DNA of 64,000 nucleotides, taken from the NCBI RefSeq assembly GCF_009914755.1, contig NC_060934.1. One strand, 5' to 3'. Each line of letters begins with the position of its first letter. Position 1 is the stretch's first letter. The position numbers and the translations under genes are program-made. The notes beneath the pieces are model-generated. The model did not search any database. It was not told where the DNA came from and worked only from the letters and a program-made list of their open reading frames with translations. Shown in pieces: positions 26,612-63,738 of the stretch. This DNA comes from the human T2T-CHM13v2.0 reference genome, Homo sapiens.

Positions 26612-27209
26612 GGTTTTCTGATGTTCACCATTAGTTCATGCTTTTCAAATACATTACTCTGTTTGTTTGCTTCCACTGGAATGAAGTTTTTCTAGTAAGC
26701 TGTTTGCTGGGTCTGCAGAGCATTAGGTGTAACTTTCCAGAGAAGACAAAGGATAACTTTGGCCTTCGTCCGTTGATTCCATTGCTTGTTCATTGATTCT
26801 GTCCACAAGTATGCATGGAGCACTGTGAACCTCATCATGGCCGGGCCCAACCGAGGCCACTGGAGCTGCTAGAGTGAGAGAACTGTGGTCACAAGACAGG
26901 GGTGTGCCCCACATAGGACAAATGGAATGAGCAGCTTTCCAGACTGAGTAAACAGTGTGAATAATATATTAGAGTCCTTGTTAGGCTCCAGATAAAGAAG
27001 GTGAAGTAAAAGAGCCAAGGATATGAGGGAGGATATGAGAGTTCTTGATTGCTTTGAGCCTGCCGACCCACCCTCAGCAGACATGATTTGCCCTGGTTTC
27101 CCAGTGCAGGTTTGGTTCTGAGTGAAAACCAGAAGCATCATTTTCATGGTGTGGTGTGGGCCTACTGGCCAGGGTGGCCCTAGGTAGCTCTGCATCAGAC
27201 TGGGCCTTT

Positions 27210-28580
27210 ATGGAGAAGCTTCATTCTGCTAGGGATGTGTACTCTTGTCCAACCCATGAGACACTGGAGGATTTCATGGCAGAAGCCCCTGATGATGTGA
27301 GAGCAAATCTCACTGTCCCCGTATATCAGTGGGAGAGGGAAGAGTGTATTTTGACAGTCCAGGTATTCCTAGTTCTCTTGTTTATAGGCAAAATTGTTTA
27401 GTCATTCAAAGAAAGTCTTTCTTGATCAAGAGACAAGGGACCTGCCAGTAGCAATTTAGCACTAGCAGTAGTCAAATGTAATGCTCTTGGCAAGTTTCAT
27501 CCTAGGGTGGAGGAAAAGGAAGAGTCAGAAGTGGCTGATGACTTGGATGGGTTCAAGCCTATGAGGAGGAACTTCATATGCATTGTGGCAAGACACAGGG
27601 GAAGAGTAAACCCTCATTGTTCAGAACTAAAACAGCTGATGTCTGAGACAGCAAGAAAGATCCAGTCTCTACACCAAAAAGCCATTGAGCCATATGTGCA
27701 AGAAGCTAAAGCACACTTCAAACTAACAGGAGAAACTGAAAAAAGATTCAAGCTCACCAGAGCCACGTTTATGTCTTCTATGAAGAGTCAGGCTATGTCT
27801 TGGCAGGAAGACAGACTCAAGATCAATGAAGCAGCAGCTTTTTCCTGAAAGAAGGACTTGAGTGAGAAATTGGGATTAGGAGAACCAAGAAATGGAGATC
27901 ATATTCTTAAGGAGGCAAAAGGATCCAGGAAAAGATCAAAGGATGCTGTCAGGTCACATGCCCATTTCAACATTCAAGAGAAAGAGAAAGAACCAATTTC
28001 ACATCAGTATTGCCAAAGAAAAGAAGAAAGCTCACTGAGAGGTCAACACAAGATCATCTAGAAGCCTCCATGGAATGATCAGATTGACATATTGAGGAGA
28101 GAGAAAATGAAATGATTAAATGACAGCAGCCTAAAAGAAGTGGAGTGTGTGGGGATGCTACTTGTCAAGGCAGATCTTGACTTCGAGCAATAGGTAGAAA
28201 GTTCTGAAGCCAATGACCTGATGAGCCATGAAATAAAGAGTTGGAGAACTCCCAAGAGCTATTTCCTGATCTCACATGACAGCTGGAAGGAACCATTTTT
28301 TTCTAGGCAGTGCCAGATTCTGTCAATCAGGTGTCAAGCCCCCAATGATTGGCTGAGAGCTCAGGAGGTTGAAGGAAACCTCATCATCACCAGACAGGAA
28401 GTTGCGGACCTGGGACAAAGAAGAAGGGAAAGAGCCATTCAGCTCCAGCTTCTGCATGTGGATCTTCATGGATTTGATCATCCCAGTGGAGCATGTGGTT
28501 GAGATTAGGATTTGTGCCCTGATCCCTGGCCATGAAGTGCTGCTTTCTCAGAGATCGCAGAGTCTCTGGCCCATCCACTC
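27210..28580 (+). pseudogene. Intronless cTAGE5/MIA2-family (TANGO1-like) processed pseudogene, copy 1
   Basis: From ATG 27210: MEKLHSARDVY...APDDVRANLTVPVYQWEREECILTVQVFLVLLFIGKIV aligns with recalled cTAGE5 MEEPGATPQPY...[55 protein letters not shown] vs [42 protein letters not shown] vs QGQIISHEKKAHDNWLAARNAERNL. Several stops and frameshifts; no introns. Confidence 0.8.
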
Positions 28581-29068
28581 TGACCCTTCCCTTGATGACC
28601 CTCTCCTCACTCCCCCTCCTCTGTCTCCAGTACCTTCACTTTTTCTTTCCTCTTTCCTTTTCCTCAATAAGATGTTTACTGAGTCTTAATAGGGAGTTCC
28701 TGGCAAGAAGCTATCTTCTTCCACTACCTCCTTCAAGAAGGCTTGTTGCACCCATGCCAGGCTTCTTCATCCTCAAAGTAGGGTTCTCCTCTTTTGCATC
28801 TACCATAGCCTGTTTTTTCCCCTGGATATTTGAATTTAGAAAATGGTTGTGTTATCTCTCGGTTTCATTCAACCTCCATGGGACCTTTGTCCTCCAAATT
28901 CCGAAACCACACAGTGGTCTTCAGTCATGAGTTTTCATATTTGATCCTTAAAATGTCTTTCAGTTCTCCCTCTATGTTTATATTTATGGTAGAGTCTTTT
29001 ACACAAGTGGTTTGTTTTTTGTAGAATCTTGATAGTCATATAGATTTCAGGATAAATTTAGAAAATAG

Positions 29069-39024: not shown

Positions 39025-39895
39025 CTTGTTTTAGTTTCCTAGGATGACTGTAGTAAATTAACACAAGCTAGGTGGATTAAAACAACAAAAATTCATTTGC
39101 TCCAATTTCTGGAGTCCAGAAGTCTGAAATCAAAGTGTTGGCAGGGCTACACTCCCTTTAGACACTGTAGGGGAGGATCTCTTTCTTGCCTCTTTCAGCC
39201 TCAGCTTTCTTCTTCCTTCCTTCAGTGTTTGCAGATGTTTCTTTGCTTGTGGCTGCATTGCTCCAATCTCTGCTTCCTCATTCCTTCCTCTTCTTCTTCT
39301 GGACATCTGTCTCCAAACTCCCCCTGCCCATCTTGATACATGTGATTTTATTTAGGGCCTGCAATGGACTGAATGTTTGTTTCCTCTCGAAATTCCTATC
39401 TTGAAATCCTAACTGTCAATATGATGGTATTAGAAGTTGTGGCCTTTGGAGGTGATTAGGTCATGAGGGTGGAGCTCTGCTAAATGAGTTTGTGCCATTA
39501 TGGAGTCTGTGACTCTAGAGAGCTCTACCAGTCTCTTTCTACCATGTGAGAGCACAAGGAGCAGTCAGCTGTCTAGAACCTGGAAGAGGTCCACAACCTC
39601 ATCGGAACCCGGCCATGGTAGCATGCTGATCTTGGACTTCCATCTTCCAGGACTGTGAGAAATAAATTTGTTATTTATAAGTCACCCAGTCTACAATACT
39701 TTGTTACAGCAATCTGAAATGGCTAAAAAAGAGCCCAACCAAATAATCCAGGGTAATTCCTCCTTGCAAGATCCTTAATTTAATCATATCACATATAAGA
39801 TAGTATGCACTATTTTGCCCTGTAAAGTAATATTCACGGATCCCAGAGATTAGAATATGAATATATCATTGGAGGTTACCTTTCAGCTAACAACA
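39025..39895. mobile_element. MLT1C-like LTR with a nested, oppositely oriented MLT1A/MST-like LTR (about 39360-39728)
   Basis: TGTTTTAGTTTCCTAGG...TTTAGGGCC resumes at GAGCCCAACCAAATAATCCAGG after an inserted TGCAATGGACTGAATGTTTG...GGCTAAAA unit. Confidence 0.75.
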
Positions 39896-42369: not shown

Positions 42370-46640
<4,271 letters not shown>

Positions 46641-47121
46641 ATAGAGAAAGTTACAAAATAGATTTTCTTAATACCTGAAACTTGGTAAAAAGCTGTGGTA
46701 TTAAACTGTGGTGATGTCATTAGGGGAGCCCTCTACCCAAACAGAAAGGAAGGCTCAACAGAGCACAGGTGTTTGTTGTAAATGGAAAAATAAATCCGTC
46801 TTATTTTCATACTGCAGCAAGTTAACACTATCGAAAGCATTACAGATTAATTAAACTAGATAATTAATGTAGGATGCAAAAGATAGGGCCTCATAGTATA
46901 TATTAAAAATATTATATAATTAGCATGACTACTACTGCTGCTGCTAACTACTACTACTACTATTATTGCTTTGTTGGTGCTGTTAGTGATCATTTTTAGT
47001 GATTGCCCACAAAAGGAACAATACTGGATATGAGGAAATTGATATAATTTATCTTTTCAAGCATACTGTGGGCCTGTGGGTTGCAGTAAAAAGACAAGGA
47101 GGGCCTGAGTGATATGACCCT

Positions 47122-47495
47122 TCAGATAGGGAACTCACAGACGGCCAGATGGGAGGTGGAGCAGGGGACGTCATTCCACTGGCCATTTTTCAGTAGCAAT
47201 ACACAATCTTCATCAGAACCAGCATTGTTGGGTTCACCCTCGTTCCAGTTTGTGTAGGTCAGTCTATTTCCTGTCAGATCCACAAACTGCCCTTCTGTCT
47301 TCTCATCAGTGATGCCCAGGAAGGCTTCCTCCTTGATGAGATTCTGAATGGCTCCATTCTCTGCAGCATTCCTGGGGGTGGCCACAGAGGCCTGGAACTT
47401 GACACACAAGGCCTTCACTTTTTCAAAGGTCATTATTTCACCATTGGTCAGGAAGAACTTGTTCCCAACTTGTTTGCCCAGAGAGAAGGTCAGCC
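47122..47495 (-). CDS. MBL2: MBL2 coding exon 4 (C-type lectin carbohydrate recognition domain)
   Basis: Acceptor TTTTAG|GGCTG; [15 protein letters not shown]...EPN...WND...CEFPI then TGA at 47122-47124; EPN and WND are the mannose-type CTLD motifs; the four exons total 747 nt (248 aa). Confidence 0.99.
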
Positions 47496-47575
47496 CTAAA
47501 ATGTGAAAAAGTGGGTGAAACTCACTCATCCTTAAGCCCAACTCAAGGTATTTCTCAAGAAAAAGTCTTCTAGAG

Positions 47576-47752
47576 TAGAGTTGCCGGATAAAATATAGTA
47601 TGTCCAGTTAAATTTGAATTTCAGACAAACAATGAATATTTTAGTATATCTCCCATATAATTTTTCAGACACACTTATACTAAAAATGTTTTTCAGCTGA
47701 AATCCAATTTAACTGGTGCTTTGTCTTTTTATTTGTTAAATATGGCAACCCA
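47576..47752. mobile_element. MER53 palindromic hAT MITE in MBL2 intron 3
   Basis: TAGAGTTGCCGGATAAAAT...CCAGTTAAATTTGAATTTCAG...TTTAACTGG...ATGGCAACCC terminal inverted repeats. Confidence 0.8.
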
Positions 47753-47959
47753 AATGTGAACAGACAGACTGGTACAAAGGCCTCTCTGTGCTTTCAGATC
47801 AGAATTCTAAAAGACATATAATTTGGACTTCTGAATTCTAAATTGTTAACTTGAGACCAAACAAAAAATGTCTGAAAATATTTGCCCCAGGCAGGTTAGA
47901 CCCCACGGCCAGGTCTCAATACCAGTGCAACAAAGGGATATAAGTCCCATTTTCAGTGA

Positions 47960-48178
47960 GCAATATCAGACGGTAAAGGATTAGGGTCTCTCGAGTCAGA
48001 CTGACTTCCATCTATAAACCACCCCTGCCATTTATTAGCTCTGTGCATTTGAACAAGTAATTTAACTTCCCTTTGCCTCCATTTCTACCAAAATGTTGTG
48101 AGAATTTCATGAGGTAAGAATATGAGAAATGCCTAGCAGGGTACAGAAAATTATATGCATTCAACAAATATTTGTTGC
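47960..48178. mobile_element. MIR SINE in MBL2 intron 3
   Basis: TGAACAAGTAATTTAACTTCCCTTTGCCTCCATTTC core. Confidence 0.7.
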
Positions 48179-48231
48179 ATTCTATTTTTCCCAAACTTCA
48201 AGCTGCCTGGAGAGTAAGAGAAAAAGCTTAC

Positions 48232-48300
48232 ACTTTTTGATACGTGCCATTTCTGTTTGCAGAGCTTTTCTTTCTGAGGCAGCCAGGCTACTATCACCAT
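48232..48300 (-). CDS. MBL2: MBL2 coding exon 3 (neck coiled coil)
   Basis: Acceptor TTTTCTAG|ATGGTG; DGDSSLAASERKALQTEMARIKK; donor AAGT|GTAAGC; 69 nt. Confidence 0.99.
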
Positions 48301-48840
48301 CTAGAAAATTAGAACAAAGTAAAGAAGCATTGTTGAGAAGGAGCCTCAGAACTGTGCATATACAAGGGAGTGGAGTATCTTTTTCAAACTGAAAAAAAAA
48401 GCTTATTTTACATTGATGTTTACACTTTGAAGGAAAATAAAAAATACTGAAAAGCCCAAAGAATGAAAAATCGCTATTTCCATCCAACCCCAAATGTCCC
48501 TCTTTGTCTGTTTACTGTATCCCAAAGTACGCATACATATCACATGCACACATATACTCCCTGATTACCTAGCAATCCATATGCCAGGTTCTTCACAGAT
48601 TTTTTTTTCAAATAAATTGTTCTATCAAAACTAAAAAGAAATCTCTTGAGGCGTTACTCTATTATGACCTGGTGAAGAGTGACGAAAAAGATTGCAGAGT
48701 TTTTGTCTTTGGAGAGGTTTTGCTTTTGATGTCTTTTGTTTTGTTTTTGTTTTTTCCAGGTTTGTTCTGTTAGTCAGGAAACCAAGATTTTTGTGAGTTG
48801 CCCATTATCCAAGTGGGGAGGGCATGAGCAAATCACTTGT

Positions 48841-49292
48841 TGTAGTAGATGGCAAAAATGGCCTCAATAGGGTACAGCTCCTCGCATTAAGACATGAGTC
48901 TTACCCCACTCCTTGAATCTGGGCTGGCCTTGTGACTTGTTTTGACCAATACAGTCTGACAGAAATGATAATGTGCTCTGAGTCTTCAAGAAGCCTAAAG
49001 CCTATCTTATTTCTACTCTTGGGAATCCTGTAATCACTGCTATGTGAACAAGCCCTGTTGGATGATGAGAGATGTGGTTCAATTACCCTCATCACTCCAG
49101 CTAACATTCAGACAACAGCCAGACACATGAGTGAGACTATTGGCCATCAGTTGACCACAGACATGTGGGTAAGCCCAGCTTAAACCAGCAGAGAAATCAC
49201 ATGGCCGACCCACAGACTTGTGATTTAAATTGACGGCTATGTTTTTAAGCTATTAAGCTTTGGCTTGGTTTCTTATGAAGTAAAATATGACA
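48841..49292. mobile_element. MLT1-type LTR in MBL2 intron 2
   Basis: CTTGAATCTGGGCTGGCCTTGTGACTTG...TTTTAAGCTATTAAGCTTTGG. Confidence 0.7.
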
Positions 49293-49652
49293 TACCATGG
49301 TTACATGCTTTTGTAAAAATAGGTATAATAAGCCCACACTTAGATGGCCTGTTTTCTCCCTCTAGGACCAGGGCCTCACATTAGACTGTTTCAGCTGATG
49401 GAGAATCCAGGCTCAGCTCTTACAGGGAGTGCCTGATGAGGGAGTTGTCTTGAAAAGTTTGTAAGTCTGTACTCAGGCACTTATAGGAATTCCCTAAGGC
49501 TCTAAGAATGAAGAGAGGGCTGAGGGCACTGGGTCAGAAAGCAAATTTGGGTATCTTCCTTTGAAGGAACAGGAGAAGGGGCACCTCTTACCAGATACTC
49601 AAGGTCTCAGAACCCTGGGTGAAGTCAGCTCAGACCTTGCTGGGGTCCTTAC

Positions 49653-49769
49653 CCGGACTTTTTCCAGGGTCTCCTTTTTGGCCCTTTGGTCCTGGTGACC
49701 CAGAAGGCCCTGGATTTCCTGGAGGCCCCAACTTTCCAGGGGGGCCCTGTAAGCCTCTGAGCCCTTGGC
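49653..49769 (-). CDS. MBL2: MBL2 coding exon 2 (collagen-like Gly-X-Y repeats)
   Basis: Acceptor CCAACAG|GCCAAG; [39 protein letters not shown]; donor CCGG|GTAAGG; 117 nt, phase 1-1. Confidence 0.99.
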
Positions 49770-50431
49770 CTGTTGGAAGACAAAGGAAATGTGACTTAAT
49801 ATCTATGTTCTTGCTCTCTCTCTTCAAGAGTTTGATGCCCAATCCCTTCTCAGGAGAAAGGAGACCTTGACCCAGGACTGACCTTTCTGAGCACTGCTCT
49901 CAATAACTGTATGGTGTGCACCTGAGAGCAATAACTTAAGAAATAAAGTTGCCACGTGGAGGTTGCTGCAGGGAGGGTGCAAAGTGAAAATTAACTGCAT
50001 TTGTTTTTACAAGTAGTTGTTGTTCTCCTGTCCAGCCCACTGCTGCTGGATCTCCCTGTAAACAGGTTCCCCCAGTAAAACCTATGTTTGTTTGCTGACT
50101 CCATCTCTTCTTTGGCCTCTTGAACCTGGTGCCATCCCTACTGAAGTGAATAGGGGTCTGACATGACAATGACCCAGAGAAGAAAAATTCATCCTGTGTC
50201 CCATGGGATGGCCTGACCTGTGGGCCACTTTCCTGGGCTGGCAAGACAACTATTAGTCACAAACTGCTGTGTGGAATTCTGAGATGCCAGAGAATGAGAG
50301 CTGAATCTCTGTTTTGAGTTATAGTATAGTTGAGAAAAATATACTCAAATAGGACATCAGTCTCCTCATATCCCCAGGCAGTTTCCTCTGGAAGGTAAAG
50401 AATTGCAGAGACAGAACAGCCCAACACGTAC

Positions 50432-50618
50432 CTGGTTCCCCCTTTTCTCCCTTGGTGCCATCACGCCCATCTTTGCCTGGGAAGCCGTTGATGCCTGGAG
50501 AGCTACAGGCAATCACTGCAGGGCAGGTCTTTTGGGCATCCTCACAGGTCACAGTTTCTGAGTAAGACGCTGCCACCATACTCAGGAGAAGGAGAGGGAG
50601 TGATGGAAACAGGGACAT
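50432..50618 (-). CDS. MBL2: MBL2 coding exon 1 (signal peptide, Cys-rich N-terminus, start of collagen-like region)
   Basis: ATG at 50618 in ACCATG context; translation [62 protein letters not shown]; donor CCAG|GTACGT at 50432/50431; 187 nt. Confidence 0.99.
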
Positions 50619-51350
50619 GGTCCTCACCTTGGTGTGAGAAAACTCAGGGAAGGTTAATCTCAGTTAATGAACACATATTTACCAAGCATGCCCTCTGTCC
50701 TACAATCTGGGTGCAGGCTATATAGAAATAGATGACCCATCCCTGGCCTCTAGCTGAGGATTTGGAAAAGTAAACATTCCTTGTGACACTGCGTGACTAG
50801 TACTTTAACAAAGGTAGGCACTATGATGAGCAGTGGGGATCCTAAGGAGGGGTTCATCTGTGCCTAGACACCTGGCGTTGCTGCTGGAAGACTATAAACA
50901 TGCTTTCCGTGGCAGTGAGAACAAATGGGACCGTGCATTGCCAGCTGGCTTATGCCTGTTAGCTTAGGGAATGAGAATGAGTGGAAACCCAGGTGTCTGT
51001 AGGAGCTTCCTCTCCACGTCCTCTTCGGGCCCATCTGCCACCTGAATCCCATCTTTGTATCTGGGCAGCTGATTCCCCTCCAGGACCTGTTAACTATCAT
51101 TTACTCAGTGGCAGGCCCTGAGCTGAAAGCTGGTGATCCAAAGAGGAAGGTCTCAACCTCAGATCAACCTCAACCTTAGTCACCAACCCAGCCCAGAATT
51201 AACTGGAGTTTGCTTCCCCTTGGTGTTTTAGACAGGCTTGCCTGGGTAAGCATTTTCTCTGGAAATTTCTTACTACGTTGGCCCTGGCAGAGTGCTAAAT
51301 ACCTCTCTACTTTCTGGCAGGAATTCCCCATGTTCTGTGAGTCAAAAACC
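50619..51350 (-). promoter_or_regulatory. MBL2: MBL2 exon-1 promoter and 5'UTR with TATA box, FoxA/HNF3-type motifs and the H/L, X/Y, P/Q sites
   Basis: TATATA at 50719-50724; forkhead motifs GTAAACA 50770-50776, TATTTAC 50676-50682, ATAAACA ~50894-50900; gene-strand alleles C at 51231 (L), G at 50908 (Y), T at 50684 (Q). Confidence 0.85.
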
Positions 51351-51713
51351 ACTGGCAATTAGAAAACTTGCCTTGAATCCTCCTCCCATTTCTCAGTATT
51401 AACCTTTCATTTGTTCTTCAGAGCTTTCTTCCAGCTATTGCCCCCTAAGAAACCTCAGCAGCCTAGCCCCATAGGTCTAAGCCTCCAAGTTTCCCTTTGA
51501 AAACAAAGACAGTCTCCACTGCAGATGAACAGATAATGGAGGAAAGTCACAGATGCTCCAGCACAAGCAGAAAAAGAGACATCCTCAACCTGATTTCTGC
51601 TTTCCATCCCACTCCCCCCACCCCTAGAAAGCCTCCTCCATGCCTCCAGGGTCATGTCAGCTCCCCAAACCCTTGATCCGGAAACCCAGATTTATTCACC
51701 AGAAATGACTTAC

Positions 51714-51760
51714 TGGTGTTTCTGCAGAGCAGGGACTCAGTGACAAGGACGCTGGCCCTC
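51714..51760 (-). other. MBL2: MBL2 non-coding exon 0 (alternative first exon; 5' end approximate)
   Basis: Strong donor CACCA|GTAAGT at 51714/51713, about 1.1 kb upstream of the ATG; matching acceptor CACCAAG|GTGAGGACCATG at 50628/50627; MBL2 is known to have an exon 0. Confidence 0.75.
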
Positions 51761-52404
51761 TAGCCTGGGGCTCTGGCAGATGCCTCAGAGTGAGGGAGGA
51801 GGCTGGGCTCAGCAATGTAGGGCCCAATCAACCTTGTGAACAAGGATATCCTGGGCCTGGCCTTCAACTCCAGATTAATAAACAGCTCTTCTCAGAACTA
51901 TGAGAAATTTAGGAGCCTCCAATACAGTGCTCGGCAGCTGTCTGCTTTAATACAGCACAATTCCTCTTTCAATTGCCATCCATTTTGGCAAATCTCATTG
52001 CTGAACTACCACAGCTAGGTTCACCTAGTTAGTCCTGTTGACATCCTTGTTTCCAACAGAAAAACAAAGATACTCACAAATGCATACACATGCTCATGCA
52101 CACCAACTATACACACAGACACGTGCATGCACGCACACACCCATCCATGAAACCACATAGACCTCTTGCTGCCATTAATGCATTAAGGCCATTCCTGCCT
52201 CAGACTCTTCACTTGATGTCTCCATGCCTGGACCCCTTACGGGCATCGCCAGCTAGCTCTTTCTCTTCTATTCAAATATTCCAATTTCAGAGAAATCAGT
52301 ACCTTGATCACTTATTCTAAAATAGTCCTACCTAGCAGTCTCTATCCTCTTAGCCTGAATTATTTTCTCTCATGTTACTTACACTTTATGATATTATAGT
52401 CATT

Positions 52405-62149: not shown

Positions 62150-63290
62150 GTAAACTCTTGAGGACTGGCAACCACTCTGTAACACATGAAATGTCAACCT
62201 ATGATCAGAGAATATGAAAATCCAGAAGTGCTTGGTATTCTGGGCAAATTGAGCTCTGTGAATAATATAGAATTGCATTCGCATCCTAGTCAACCATGGG
62301 ATAAGAGAAGCCTCAATGTTCAGACCAAGGACAATCAGTGTCTGATCCTAAAAGAAAGTTACAGGCTCTAGAAAAAGAAATCTAATTCATCACAACACAA
62401 GTGGAATATGCCAAGACACACATGCTTGAACCTATCACAGAAAACTGAAAAAATTCTCATCATTTCCATACAGAGATCCAGCACTTGTGTGAAGAGTAAG
62501 TTCAAGTTTCTGCAGGATTGTTAGCGCAAAACCGAAGAACTGGCAGCCTCCCTGGGAGAGGAGAACATTGGTGATAATGTCCAATCAGAGAATGGAGATC
62601 ATGTTGAAACTAGGCAAAAGGATCCTAGAGGAAACTGAAGGGTTTTGTAGGGAAGTTGGACATTTAAACATTGAAAATAGAGGAAAATTCAATCTATGCC
62701 AACGTTGCTGAAGAAGAGTACAGAAAAGCTGAACGGACAAGTCCTCTGAAAGGGGCTCAAACTGAAGAAGCTGAATGAAAAGGTCAGATCCGCATCTTAG
62801 AGGAGAGAGGAAATGAAATGAGTGAACTCTATCAGCAGAAAGAAATGGAGTCTGTGTCTCAGTTATTACCTGTCAGGGTAGATTATGACTAACAGAAAGA
62901 GGTGGGAAGTTTTGAAGCCAAAGACCTGGTGAGTCGTAAAAATGAACTAGAGATCTACAGAATAGATTGTAAGATATCAAAGAAAAGCTGGAAATACCAT
63001 TTCTTCTTCTCAGGGACAGATTCTGTCCTTAGAACTAAAAGTTAATGGTAATTGGTTGAGAGCTTGGGAGGCTGAACAAAATCTCATCCTCACCAGACAG
63101 GAGGTTGCAGATCTGAGGTAAAGAATAAGGGAAAGATAAATTCAACTCCAGCTTCTGGCAGTGGATCCTCTTGTATTTGTTGATTGTGATGGAACATTTG
63201 GCTGGGAGCATTTGCTTCTCAGCCCATAGGCATGGGATGCCGCTTCGTCTGGGATGGAACGGCTCCATGCCCCTCTGCTCAGCTTCCAGG
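62150..63290 (+). pseudogene. Intronless cTAGE5/MIA2-family processed pseudogene, copy 2 (5' end not recognisable)
   Basis: VSDPKRKLQALEKEI*FITTQVEYAK vs cTAGE5 [34 protein letters not shown]...QSENGDH vs WAAMLGED...ESENGAY; MSELYQQKEM vs MTELYQENEM; NELEIYR vs EELETYR; SSQGQILSLELKVNGNWLRAWEAEQNL vs SYQGQIISHEKKAHDNWLAARNAERNL. DNA is clearly similar to copy 1. Confidence 0.8.
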
Positions 63291-63370
63291 ATGTCCTGTA
63301 CCTTCACTTTACCTTTCAGAAAGAAGAAAGGTGTTTGTCTCAATACATTTTAGTTGATTTAGAGAATGGC

Positions 63371-63738
63371 TGTCCTAGTCAGTCTGGGCTGCTATAACAG
63401 AAAAACACGGACTGGGTGACTTAAACAACAGACAATTATTTCTCACAGTTCTTGGGGCTGGGAAGTATAAAAACAAGGCACTGGCAGTCTGATGTTTGGT
63501 AAGGGCACTGCTCTTGGTTTGCAGAAGGCCATTTTGTCATTGTATCCTCATATAGTGGAGACAGAAAGAGATTATCTCTTTCTTGTCTCTTCTTATAAGG
63601 GCACTAATCCCCTTGTTCAGGGCTCCACCCTTATGATCTAATTACTTGCCAAAGGCCCCATCTCCTAATACTATCACCTTGGGAATTTAGGCTTCAACAT
63701 ATGAATTTTAGGCAGACACAAACATTCAGTACATAGCA
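63371..63738. mobile_element. MLT1A-type MaLR LTR
   Basis: TGTCCTAGTCAGTCTGGGCTGCTATAAC...CATTCAGTACATAGCA. Confidence 0.8.

What the first reader, a model, noticed from the sequence alone, without database searches (positions are those of the whole stretch)
62150..63290. Second cTAGE-like copy on the other side of MBL2: a possible lost local gene family
Seen: this region is homologous to 27.4-28.6 kb in the same orientation. The two copies share features absent from recalled cTAGE5: NGDH, WLRAxExExNLIxTRQEVADL, IQLQLLxVD and an apparent ~40-aa shortening of the first coiled coil. In TRQEVADL (28389-28412 vs 63092-63115) all three nucleotide differences are synonymous third-position changes (GAA/GAG, GCG/GCA, GAC/GAT), and nearby AAC/AAT, CTG/TTG and CAG/CAA are also silent. 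Inference: a cTAGE5 retrocopy diverged, duplicated locally, stayed under coding constraint for a time and later decayed. cTAGE5/TANGO1 proteins export bulky cargo such as collagens from the ER, so the position beside a collagenous lectin is notable, but any functional link is speculation.
Basis: partly seen in the sequence, partly recalled or inferred. Interest (0 to 1): 0.85.

Follow-up and report, generated by a model that had tools for sequence, protein, structure and literature searches.

The report
Dead MIA2-like gene pair flanking MBL2
The two stretches either side of human MBL2 are decayed remains of an old, intronless offshoot of the ER-export gene MIA2/cTAGE5 that still has an open reading frame in reindeer and a few other mammals but is dead in people.

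Summary
Window 62178-63317 (+) is homologous to 27492-28649 (+): 70.4% over 456 nt (E 4e-47) and 63.3% over 930 columns (E 3e-70).

Both copies are intronless, MIA2/cTAGE5-derived and dead. Copy 1 (27174-28568) has 11 stops and 6 frameshifts. Copy 2 (62178-63272) has 13 stops and 11 frameshifts, and the first ~100 codons are not detectable.

They are not ordinary cTAGE pseudogenes. They belong to a distinct subfamily that is 81 residues shorter than CTAGE9 and has no proline-rich tail. Open ORFs of 471-483 aa exist in reindeer and in three unnamed sources. This clade has 100/100 support and sits with mammalian MIA2, far from MIA3.

Copy 1 groups with the intact genes and a squirrel protein, which suggests a unitary pseudogene. 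Copy 2 branches below them as an older paralogue.

Four more relics lie on chr10, 11, 12 and 18. A functional link to MBL2 is untested. Interest is moderate.

The parts
62178..63272 (+). Copy 2: decayed pseudogene matching residues 103-470 of the intact relative P0003. The N-terminal ~100 codons, including the membrane segment, are not detectable.
   Evidence: Frameshift-aware alignment scores 593, with 11 frameshifts and 13 stops. tblastn with P0003-P0009 hits 62305-63283. Upstream alignments score no better than shuffled queries.
63273..63317 (+). Short 3' tail of copy 2 that is still homologous to the sequence after the family's stop codon in copy 1 (28595-28649).
   Evidence: Local alignment score 21 vs a shuffled maximum of 14.
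27174..28568 (+). Copy 1: full-length decayed pseudogene collinear with residues 2-469 of P0003. It is the likely human orthologue (unitary pseudogene) of the intact gene.
   Evidence: Alignment score 1000, with 6 frameshifts and 11 stops. It is the best human match of P0003: 47% identity, E 3e-108. It groups with the intact ORFs in the trees.
28060..28504 (+). Best-conserved block of copy 1, the second coiled coil (WLRAQE...RQEVADL...IQLQLL). It pairs with 62766-63207.
   Evidence: 70.4% identity over 456 columns. pN here is 0.245 vs 0.401 in the 5' part, while pS is 0.309 vs 0.337. The homologous helix is the only confidently predicted part of P0003.
62766..63207 (+). Best-conserved block of copy 2 (second coiled coil), including TRQEVADL at 63092-63115.
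   Evidence: and a direct reading.
44365..51761 (-). MBL2, the gene lying between the two copies. It is context only and no link is shown.
   Evidence: Hub annotation. The C-terminal coding exon ORF was read and used as the query.
63094..63312 (-). Exon of the predicted lncRNA LOC105378307, overlapping the 3' end of copy 2 in antisense.
   Evidence: Hub annotation table. The overlap follows from the coordinates.

Best explanation
Both stretches are non-functional relics of an ancient, intronless gene that arose by retroposition of a cTAGE5-type (short-isoform) MIA2 mRNA in early mammals, and then diverged quickly. The gene kept the hydrophobic membrane segment and the coiled coils, lost 81 residues of coiled coil, and ends about 40 residues after the second coiled coil, so it has no proline-rich Sec23/24-binding tail.

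The gene still has an open ORF in reindeer and in several unnamed sources. Copy 1 (27174-28568) is the human remnant of that gene. Copy 2 (62178-63317) is an older paralogue that split off before the human and ruminant lineages diverged. It most likely arose by a local DNA duplication about 35 kb away, and it has decayed further.

Shown: homology, decay, clade membership, and the existence of intact relatives.
Inferred: orthology (no synteny data), local duplication (from proximity alone), and any activity of the intact protein. My guess is a membrane-anchored coiled-coil partner of TANGO1/MIA2 at ER exit sites that cannot bind the COPII inner coat.
For: - Homology between the copies: E 4e-47 and 3e-70.
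- Decay: 11 stops and 6 frameshifts in copy 1; 13 stops and 11 frameshifts in copy 2.
- Intact relatives: 2 of 4200 scored candidates and 7 of 7999 pass E<=0.001. Four are full-length ORFs (P0003 472 aa, P0004 483 aa from Rangifer tarandus, P0005 478 aa, P0006 471 aa). They are 59-61% and 81-86% identical to one another.
- Exhaustive HMMER search: 132 hits. Subfamily members score 817-190 bits and MIA2-like long proteins at most 147 bits.
- The best human matches of P0003 are copy 1 (E 3e-108), then copy 2. No intact subfamily ORF turned up among the 27 human matches.
- Careful tree of 32 rows: the subfamily clade has 100/100 support. Copy 1 plus the intact ORFs has 86/99. Copy 1 plus the squirrel protein P0010 has 86/96, which agrees with the species tree.
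- With human MIA3 exon cores as outgroup, the subfamily sits in a 97* clade with mammalian MIA2/cTAGE, and MIA3 attaches far away.
- Intronless origin: the parent's exons are spread over chr14:33.46-33.54M, yet they are contiguous in copy 1.
- The alignment runs from the cTAGE start Met.
- The hydrophobic segment is kept: KD19 1.9-2.25.
- No proline-rich tail: proline is 1.7-3.2% vs 8.6% in CTAGE9, and no remnant lies downstream.
Against: - No synteny data. I could not see where the reindeer or squirrel genes lie relative to MBL2, so orthology rests on trees and reciprocal best hits.
- The node that excludes copy 2 from the orthologue group has only 86% bootstrap, and the AU test does not formally reject a copy 1 + copy 2 clade (p 0.056).
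- No flank homology supports a DNA-level duplication.
- Copy 2 keeps its 3' end and lacks its 5' end, as the dispersed relics on chr18, chr11 and chr10:81M do. That pattern is typical of retrocopies.
- dN/dS between the copies is about 1, so nothing shows that copy 2 was ever functional.
- All but two of the subfamily proteins are unnamed (reindeer and ground squirrel). They are gene-caller predictions with no expression evidence, and no DNA was available for a dN/dS test among them.
- The squirrel protein is only 351 aa and lacks the second coiled coil.
Confidence: 0.8

Rival explanations
1. Copy 2 is an independent, 5'-truncated L1-mediated retrocopy of the subfamily gene's mRNA, and it merely landed near its source. 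It is not a DNA-level local duplicate.
For: Copy 2 keeps the 3' end and lacks the first ~100 codons. Three of the four dispersed relics do the same: chr18 starts at residue 43, chr11 at 218 and chr10:81M at 353. Homology stops at the transcript-like unit and no flank similarity is found.
Against: A random insertion within about 40 kb of its source has a chance of roughly 3e-5 per event (my arithmetic: 80 kb in 3.1 Gb). A partial DNA duplication gives the same truncated shape. At this age (about 37% nucleotide difference) duplicated neutral flanks would no longer be detectable anyway.
Confidence: 0.12
2. The two stretches are just two of the many ordinary processed pseudogenes of MIA2/cTAGE5. 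No distinct gene ever stood behind them.
For: The human genome holds many old cTAGE-like fragments. One search gave 59 matches, about 25 of them at 26-42% identity. dN/dS between the two copies is about 1.
Against: The copies share 8 gaps and diagnostic motifs with intact ORFs from other mammals. They form a 100/100 clade apart from MIA2-type relics such as chr4:179.97M and chr21:36.59M. P0003 is only 24% identical to CTAGE9, whereas the other MIA2-like proteins scored in the same comparison are 25-75% identical to it.
Confidence: 0.03
3. The position beside MBL2 is functional. The ancestral protein served ER export of collectins (collagen-like cargo) and was co-duplicated or co-regulated with collectin genes.
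For: Two relics flank MBL2. A third subfamily relic lies at chr10:81.133M, about 326 kb from the SFTPD exon hit at 80.807M in the SFTPA/MBL1P/SFTPD cluster. By my arithmetic, one of four dispersed relics falling that near by chance is of the order of 1e-3. cTAGE5 and TANGO1 act in export of bulky cargo (passages of PMC13601593).
Against: There is no luminal cargo-binding domain and no proline-rich tail. The other relics on chr11, chr12 and chr18 were not checked for collectin neighbours. 326 kb is not adjacency. Humans secrete MBL without this gene. No expression or interaction data exist.
Confidence: 0.05

Closest known systems
cTAGE5, the short isoform of MIA2 (TALI locus, chr14)
   Same: It has the same architecture from the start Met through the hydrophobic membrane segment and both coiled coils. 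The tree places the subfamily with mammalian MIA2/cTAGE. Its known role is to pair with TANGO1 through a coiled coil, hold SEC12 at ER exit sites and bind SEC23-SEC24 through its proline-rich domain (passages of PMC13601593).
   Different: Identity is only 24-32%. The subfamily has 81 fewer coiled-coil residues, no proline-rich domain and no introns.
Primate-specific CTAGE retrogenes (CTAGE1/2/4/6/8/9/15 type)
   Same: They are also intronless copies of the cTAGE5 mRNA. Nine loci in this genome hold open frames of 803-863 codons without stops. A CTAGE5 retrogene is described as intact and primate-specific in PMC2394760 (passages), and the family list is in PMC7829582 (passage).
   Different: They are young (74-98% identical to one another), keep the proline-rich tail and are intact in human. 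The MBL2-flanking copies are old, lack the tail, are dead in human and have intact relatives outside primates.
MIA3 / TANGO1 (and TANGO1-short)
   Same: It is in the same superfamily, with a membrane segment followed by two coiled coils. Exon cores were recovered at chr1:221.879-221.894M.
   Different: MIA3 attaches far from the subfamily when used as the outgroup. It has a luminal SH3 domain and a proline-rich domain (passages of PMC13601593).
Unitary pseudogenes of human (genes lost in primates, intact in other mammals)
   Same: Copy 1 is a disabled single-copy remnant. Its nearest relatives are intact ORFs in other mammals, and no intact human paralogue of the subfamily was found.
   Different: Synteny, the usual defining evidence, could not be checked here. 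The parent was itself a retrogene.

Membership tests
MIA/cTAGE (TANGO1) family | Sequence homology to the membrane-segment and coiled-coil region of MIA2/cTAGE5 | tested here: met
   BLASTP of copy 1 vs the CTAGE9-type ORF gives E 3e-7 and 7e-5. The family profile hits MIA2-like long proteins at 1e-38 and weaker. Trees agree.
MIA/cTAGE (TANGO1) family | Hydrophobic membrane segment before the coiled coils | tested here: met
   KD19 maxima of 1.94-2.25 lie at the homologous position in P0003-P0006, vs 2.66 in CTAGE9. Copy 1 keeps the segment. In copy 2 this part is missing.
MIA/cTAGE (TANGO1) family | C-terminal proline-rich domain that binds SEC23-SEC24 | tested here: not met
   The intact ORFs stop about 40 residues after the second coiled coil. 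Proline is 1.7-3.2% vs 8.6% in CTAGE9. No remnant lies downstream of either copy: score 53 and 38 vs shuffled 39-54.
MIA/cTAGE (TANGO1) family | Coiled-coil binding to TANGO1 and SEC12 at ER exit sites | not testable with these tools
   The only evidence is a helix prediction: residues ~360-435 of P0003 have pLDDT 70-86, while the whole model is poor (mean 41.9).
Processed (retroposed) copy | Collinear with the spliced parent mRNA, without introns | tested here: met
   The parent's exons are spread over chr14:33.46-33.54M. Copy 1 aligns contiguously to residues 2-469 of P0003 and to CTAGE9 from Met1.
Processed (retroposed) copy | Poly(A) tract and target-site duplications | not tested
   I did not look for these systematically. 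At about 37% divergence they are not expected to survive.
Primate-specific CTAGE retrogenes | High identity to cTAGE5 with the full-length ORF including the proline-rich tail | tested here: not met
   Identity to CTAGE9 is 23-32% for the copies, vs 74-98% among the young copies.
Unitary pseudogene | Intact orthologue in other species, disabled here, no functional paralogue | tested here: inconclusive
   Reciprocal best hits and a species-congruent tree favour it. Synteny could not be examined.
Tandem (local DNA) duplicate | Shared non-coding flanks or duplication junctions | tested here: not met
   No collinear flank homology at the 34.7-kb offset. Upstream flank score is 14 vs a shuffled maximum of 17. 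The test is weak at this age.

The most novel reading that the evidence does not exclude
A previously undescribed member of the TANGO1/MIA2 family survives as a working gene in non-primate mammals, possibly still next to MBL2, and was lost in the primate lineage. It would be an early-mammalian, fast-evolving retrogene encoding a membrane-anchored coiled-coil protein without the COPII-binding tail. Such a protein could act as a natural tail-less competitor or modulator of TANGO1/cTAGE5 rings at ER exit sites.
Probability: 0.45. Interest if true: 0.65.

Novelty: new variant of a known kind. Interest (0 to 1): 0.45.

Why it matters
The human MIA/cTAGE family as listed in print comprises TANGO1, TALI/MIA2/cTAGE5, MIA, OTOR and the young CTAGE retrogenes (passage of PMC7829582). 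The relics flanking MBL2 point to a further, older branch. It is dead in human, open in at least one ruminant, and has no proline-rich tail.

If the intact gene is expressed, it offers a natural tail-less variant for testing how cTAGE5-type proteins tune ER exit sites. It would also add a gene to the list of human and primate losses.

For the MBL2 locus itself, it explains two unannotated conserved-looking stretches as pseudogenes. One of them is partly used by a predicted antisense lncRNA exon.

Tried and rejected
- **Chance or repeat origin:** rejected by the E-values and by the protein relatives.
- **MIA3 as parent:** rejected by the outgroup tree.
- **Pfam:** no family for P0003-5, CTAGE9 or copy 1, apart from a sub-threshold FAM184 hit.
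- **ESM Atlas:** the nearest cluster is auto-named 'melanoma inhibitory activity protein 2-like' (score 0.92, 166 shared features, below the 170 guide). I treat it as a lead only.
- **AlphaFold2 of P0003 with a 16-row alignment:** mean pLDDT 41.9 and pTM 0.20, too poor for a fold search, so none was run.
- **Remnants of the proline-rich domain downstream of both copies:** none above shuffled level.
- **5' part of copy 2:** none above shuffled level.
- **Flank homology:** none.
- **Copy-2-type intact proteins:** of the 70 proteins under 440 aa compared, none matched copy 2 best at more than 43% identity.
- **Protein-guided dN/dS (0.72):** set aside as biased by the alignment method, because dead dispersed pairs give similar values.
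- **Literature:** no paper holds CTAGE + MBL2 + pseudogene. Searches for cTAGE + retrogene, cTAGE + retrocopies, 'CTAGE family' + primate, and MIA2-like / cTAGE5-like / CTAGE-like found nothing on this subfamily.
- **Complex prediction:** not sent, because I make no firm binding claim.

Full report
**1. The observation**

The window is human chr10 around MBL2.
- blastn gives 28060-28504 vs 62766-63207 at 70.4% over 456 columns (E 3.6e-47), plus a short block at the NGDH motif.
- A nucleotide-only alignment with gentler scoring joins these into one HSP, 27596-28504 vs 62295-63207, at 63.3% over 930 columns (E 2.7e-70).
- Homology continues about 80 nt past the family's stop position, to 28649/63317 (score 21 vs shuffled maximum 14).
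- It is absent from the flanks and upstream of about 62178.

**2. What the two stretches are**

The whole genome is held here, so I could compare within it. A CTAGE9-type intact ORF at chr6:132.9M (P0002) is only 32% identical over 82 residues and 23% over 205 residues to the read-through of copy 1. These are therefore not ordinary young cTAGE copies.

Searching the large protein collection with copy 1 (X at stops) gave an unexpected result: full-length open ORFs.
- P0003 (472 aa, unnamed source) is 46% identical over 95% of the query.
- P0004 (483 aa) is an 'unnamed protein product' of Rangifer tarandus platyrhynchus. These two were the only hits at E<=0.001 among 4200 candidates.
- A profile search added P0005 (478 aa), P0006 (471 aa) and three partial ORFs, making 7 of 7999 candidates.
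- The exhaustive HMMER search found 132 proteins at E<=0.001. Subfamily members score 817-190 bits, and MIA2-like long proteins start only at 147 bits.
- P0010 (351 aa) is a hypothetical protein of the ground squirrel Ictidomys tridecemlineatus.

A frameshift-aware alignment to P0003 gives the state of each human copy (upstream search).

| | Copy 1 | Copy 2 |
|---|---|---|
| Window coordinates | 27174-28568 | 62178-63272 |
| P0003 residues covered | 2-469 | 103-470 |
| Frameshifts | 6 | 11 |
| Stops | 11 | 13 |
| Upstream part | present | not detectable |

Relative to CTAGE9, the intact proteins and copy 1 share eight gaps totalling 81 residues. They keep the hydrophobic segment. They stop about 40 residues after the second coiled coil, so there is no proline-rich tail, and no remnant of one lies downstream.

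**3. Relationships**

*Rows used.* Of 68 proteins of 440 aa or more in hand, I used 38 in a first quick tree of 46 rows. I used 18 in the later trees of 32-33 rows. The rest were left out to save time.

*Careful tree.*
- The subfamily forms a 100/100 clade on a long stem (0.78). It holds the intact ORFs, copy 1, copy 2 and four further human relics.
- Inside it, copy 1 groups with the intact ORFs (86/99) and is sister to the squirrel protein (86/96). The reindeer-like proteins form their own group. This arrangement matches the species tree.
- Copy 2 and the relics at chr12:63.87M, chr18:11.73M, chr11:73.57M and chr10:81.13M are unresolved below that group.
- Forcing copy 1 and copy 2 together costs 27.6 log-likelihood units, AU p 0.056. 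This is disfavoured but not formally rejected.

*Outgroup tree (quick tree; exon cores located).* With human MIA3 exon cores as outgroup, the subfamily falls in a 97* clade with mammalian MIA2/cTAGE and two MIA2-type relics (chr4, chr21). That clade is nested among longer MIA2-like proteins of unnamed origin. MIA3 attaches far away.

The parent was therefore MIA2. The alignment starts at the cTAGE Met, which points to its short cTAGE5-type transcript. The parent's exons lie spread over chr14:33.46-33.54M but are contiguous here, so the origin was retroposition.

**4. Was there coding constraint between the two copies?**

| Region (nucleotide-only alignment) | Codons | dN/dS | 95% bootstrap CI |
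|---|---|---|---|
| Whole | 269 | 1.01 | 0.72-1.45 |
| 5' part | 141 | 1.28 | 0.87-2.07 |
| 3' part (from 28060) | 128 | 0.74 | 0.46-1.29 |

- Differences by codon position are 0.370, 0.338 and 0.314 (p 0.35).
- A protein-guided alignment gives 0.72. The same method gives 0.2-0.85 for pairs of dispersed dead copies, so that value reflects the method.
- One signal remains. Nonsynonymous divergence differs between the halves (pN 0.401 vs 0.245; z about 4.2 by my arithmetic's counts), while synonymous divergence does not (0.337 vs 0.309).
- That fits the second coiled coil having been protected for part of the time in at least one lineage. This is expected for the copy-1 lineage while it was a working gene. 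It says nothing certain about copy 2.

The real evidence for constraint is that ORFs of about 475 codons stay open in lineages that differ by 40% at the protein level. The human copy of the same gene has meanwhile collected 11 stops and 6 frameshifts. No DNA of the intact genes was available to me, so no dN/dS among them could be computed.

**5. Origin of copy 2**

Proximity argues for a local DNA duplication. The copies lie 34.7 kb apart in the same orientation, and a random retro-insertion that near its source has odds of about 3e-5 (my arithmetic).

Against this, no flank homology survives. Copy 2 also has the 3'-complete, 5'-truncated shape that three of the four dispersed relics share. 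I put local duplication at about 0.7 and an independent retrocopy at about 0.12.

**6. How it works**

In human, it does not work as a protein-coding gene. Both copies are dead as coding sequence. Part of copy 2 (63094-63272) is overlapped in antisense by a predicted lncRNA exon (hub table).

For the intact gene in other mammals I infer, from homology alone, a membrane-anchored coiled-coil protein of ER exit sites. It could still pair with TANGO1/MIA2-type partners through the conserved second coiled coil. That helix is the only confidently predicted part of the model (pLDDT 70-86). Without a proline-rich tail it cannot bind SEC23-SEC24. The roles of these parts in cTAGE5 and TANGO1 are taken from passages of PMC13601593. 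This mechanism is a guess, at perhaps 40%.

**7. Known or new**

- RefSeq lists nothing at either interval (hub table). I could not see GENCODE.
- The human family list in PMC7829582 (passage) has no such member.
- PMC2394760 (passages) describes a CTAGE5 retrogene as primate-specific, which is a different and younger class.
- Five literature searches found nothing on this subfamily.
- Databases do hold predicted proteins of it without informative names. An Atlas cluster auto-named 'melanoma inhibitory activity protein 2-like' may be the same family (lead only).

I rate it a new variant of a known kind.

**8. The MBL2 link**

This was not tested. One oddity is that the chr10:81.133M relic lies about 326 kb from the SFTPD hit of the SFTPA/MBL1P/SFTPD cluster. 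I record it as a lead and not as evidence.

**Verdict**

The stretches are a pseudogene pair of an undescribed, tail-less, MIA2-derived retrogene family that is lost in human and has an open reading frame in some other mammals. Interest is moderate (0.45).

Noticed in passing
G000 chr12:63866466-63867501 (L003, - strand); chr18:11730425-11731441 (L050, -); chr11:73569697-73570215 (L004, +); chr10:81133193-81133401 (L005, -): Four further dead relics of the same tail-less subfamily. They score better against P0003 than against CTAGE9 (481 vs 267, 373 vs 125, 254 vs 195); chr10:81M is ambiguous at 119 vs 123. All keep the 3' part, and three of the four have 5' ends truncated to different extents.
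   Followed up: partly
G000 chr10:81133193-81133401 vs collectin hits at chr10:80426346-80807453: One subfamily relic lies about 326 kb distal of the SFTPD exon hit in the SFTPA/MBL1P/SFTPD cluster. Three of the six human relics are therefore on chr10, near collectin genes. This could be chance or an old linkage.
   Followed up: partly
Whole genome, e.g. chr4:179970706-179971659 (L032), chr21:36588628-36589515 (L035): A separate class of about 25 old, diverged MIA2-type retro-fragments (26-42% identical to CTAGE9) is scattered over many chromosomes. They are distinct from both the young CTAGE retrogenes and the subfamily described here.
   Followed up: partly
window 27146-27268 (frame 2) vs 27174 onward (frame 3): The reindeer protein's first 41 residues match the human sequence in a different frame from the N-termini of P0003, P0005 and P0006. 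The true start of the gene may therefore be the internal Met that corresponds to the cTAGE5 start.
   Followed up: no
window 28570-28680: P0014, a 174-aa fragment from an unnamed source, reads through the usual stop into a proline-rich stretch. That stretch matches human copy 1 in another frame (SLWPIHSDPSLDDP...), so the sequence after the stop is conserved between species.
   Followed up: no
window 39360-39691 vs 63410-63738: An inverted pair of similar segments (74-81% identity) lies just downstream of copy 2 and between copy 1 and MBL2. It is probably an interspersed repeat.
   Followed up: no
window 63094-63312 (- strand): An exon of the predicted lncRNA LOC105378307 is built partly from the 3' end of copy 2, read in antisense.
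   Followed up: no
P0019, P0025, P0027, P0035, P0051 (protein fragments): Short ORF fragments 82-99% identical to human copy 1 exist in the protein collections. They are presumably pieces of the same pseudogene in human and other primates. One of them, P0027, keeps two codons that human copy 1 has lost.
   Followed up: no
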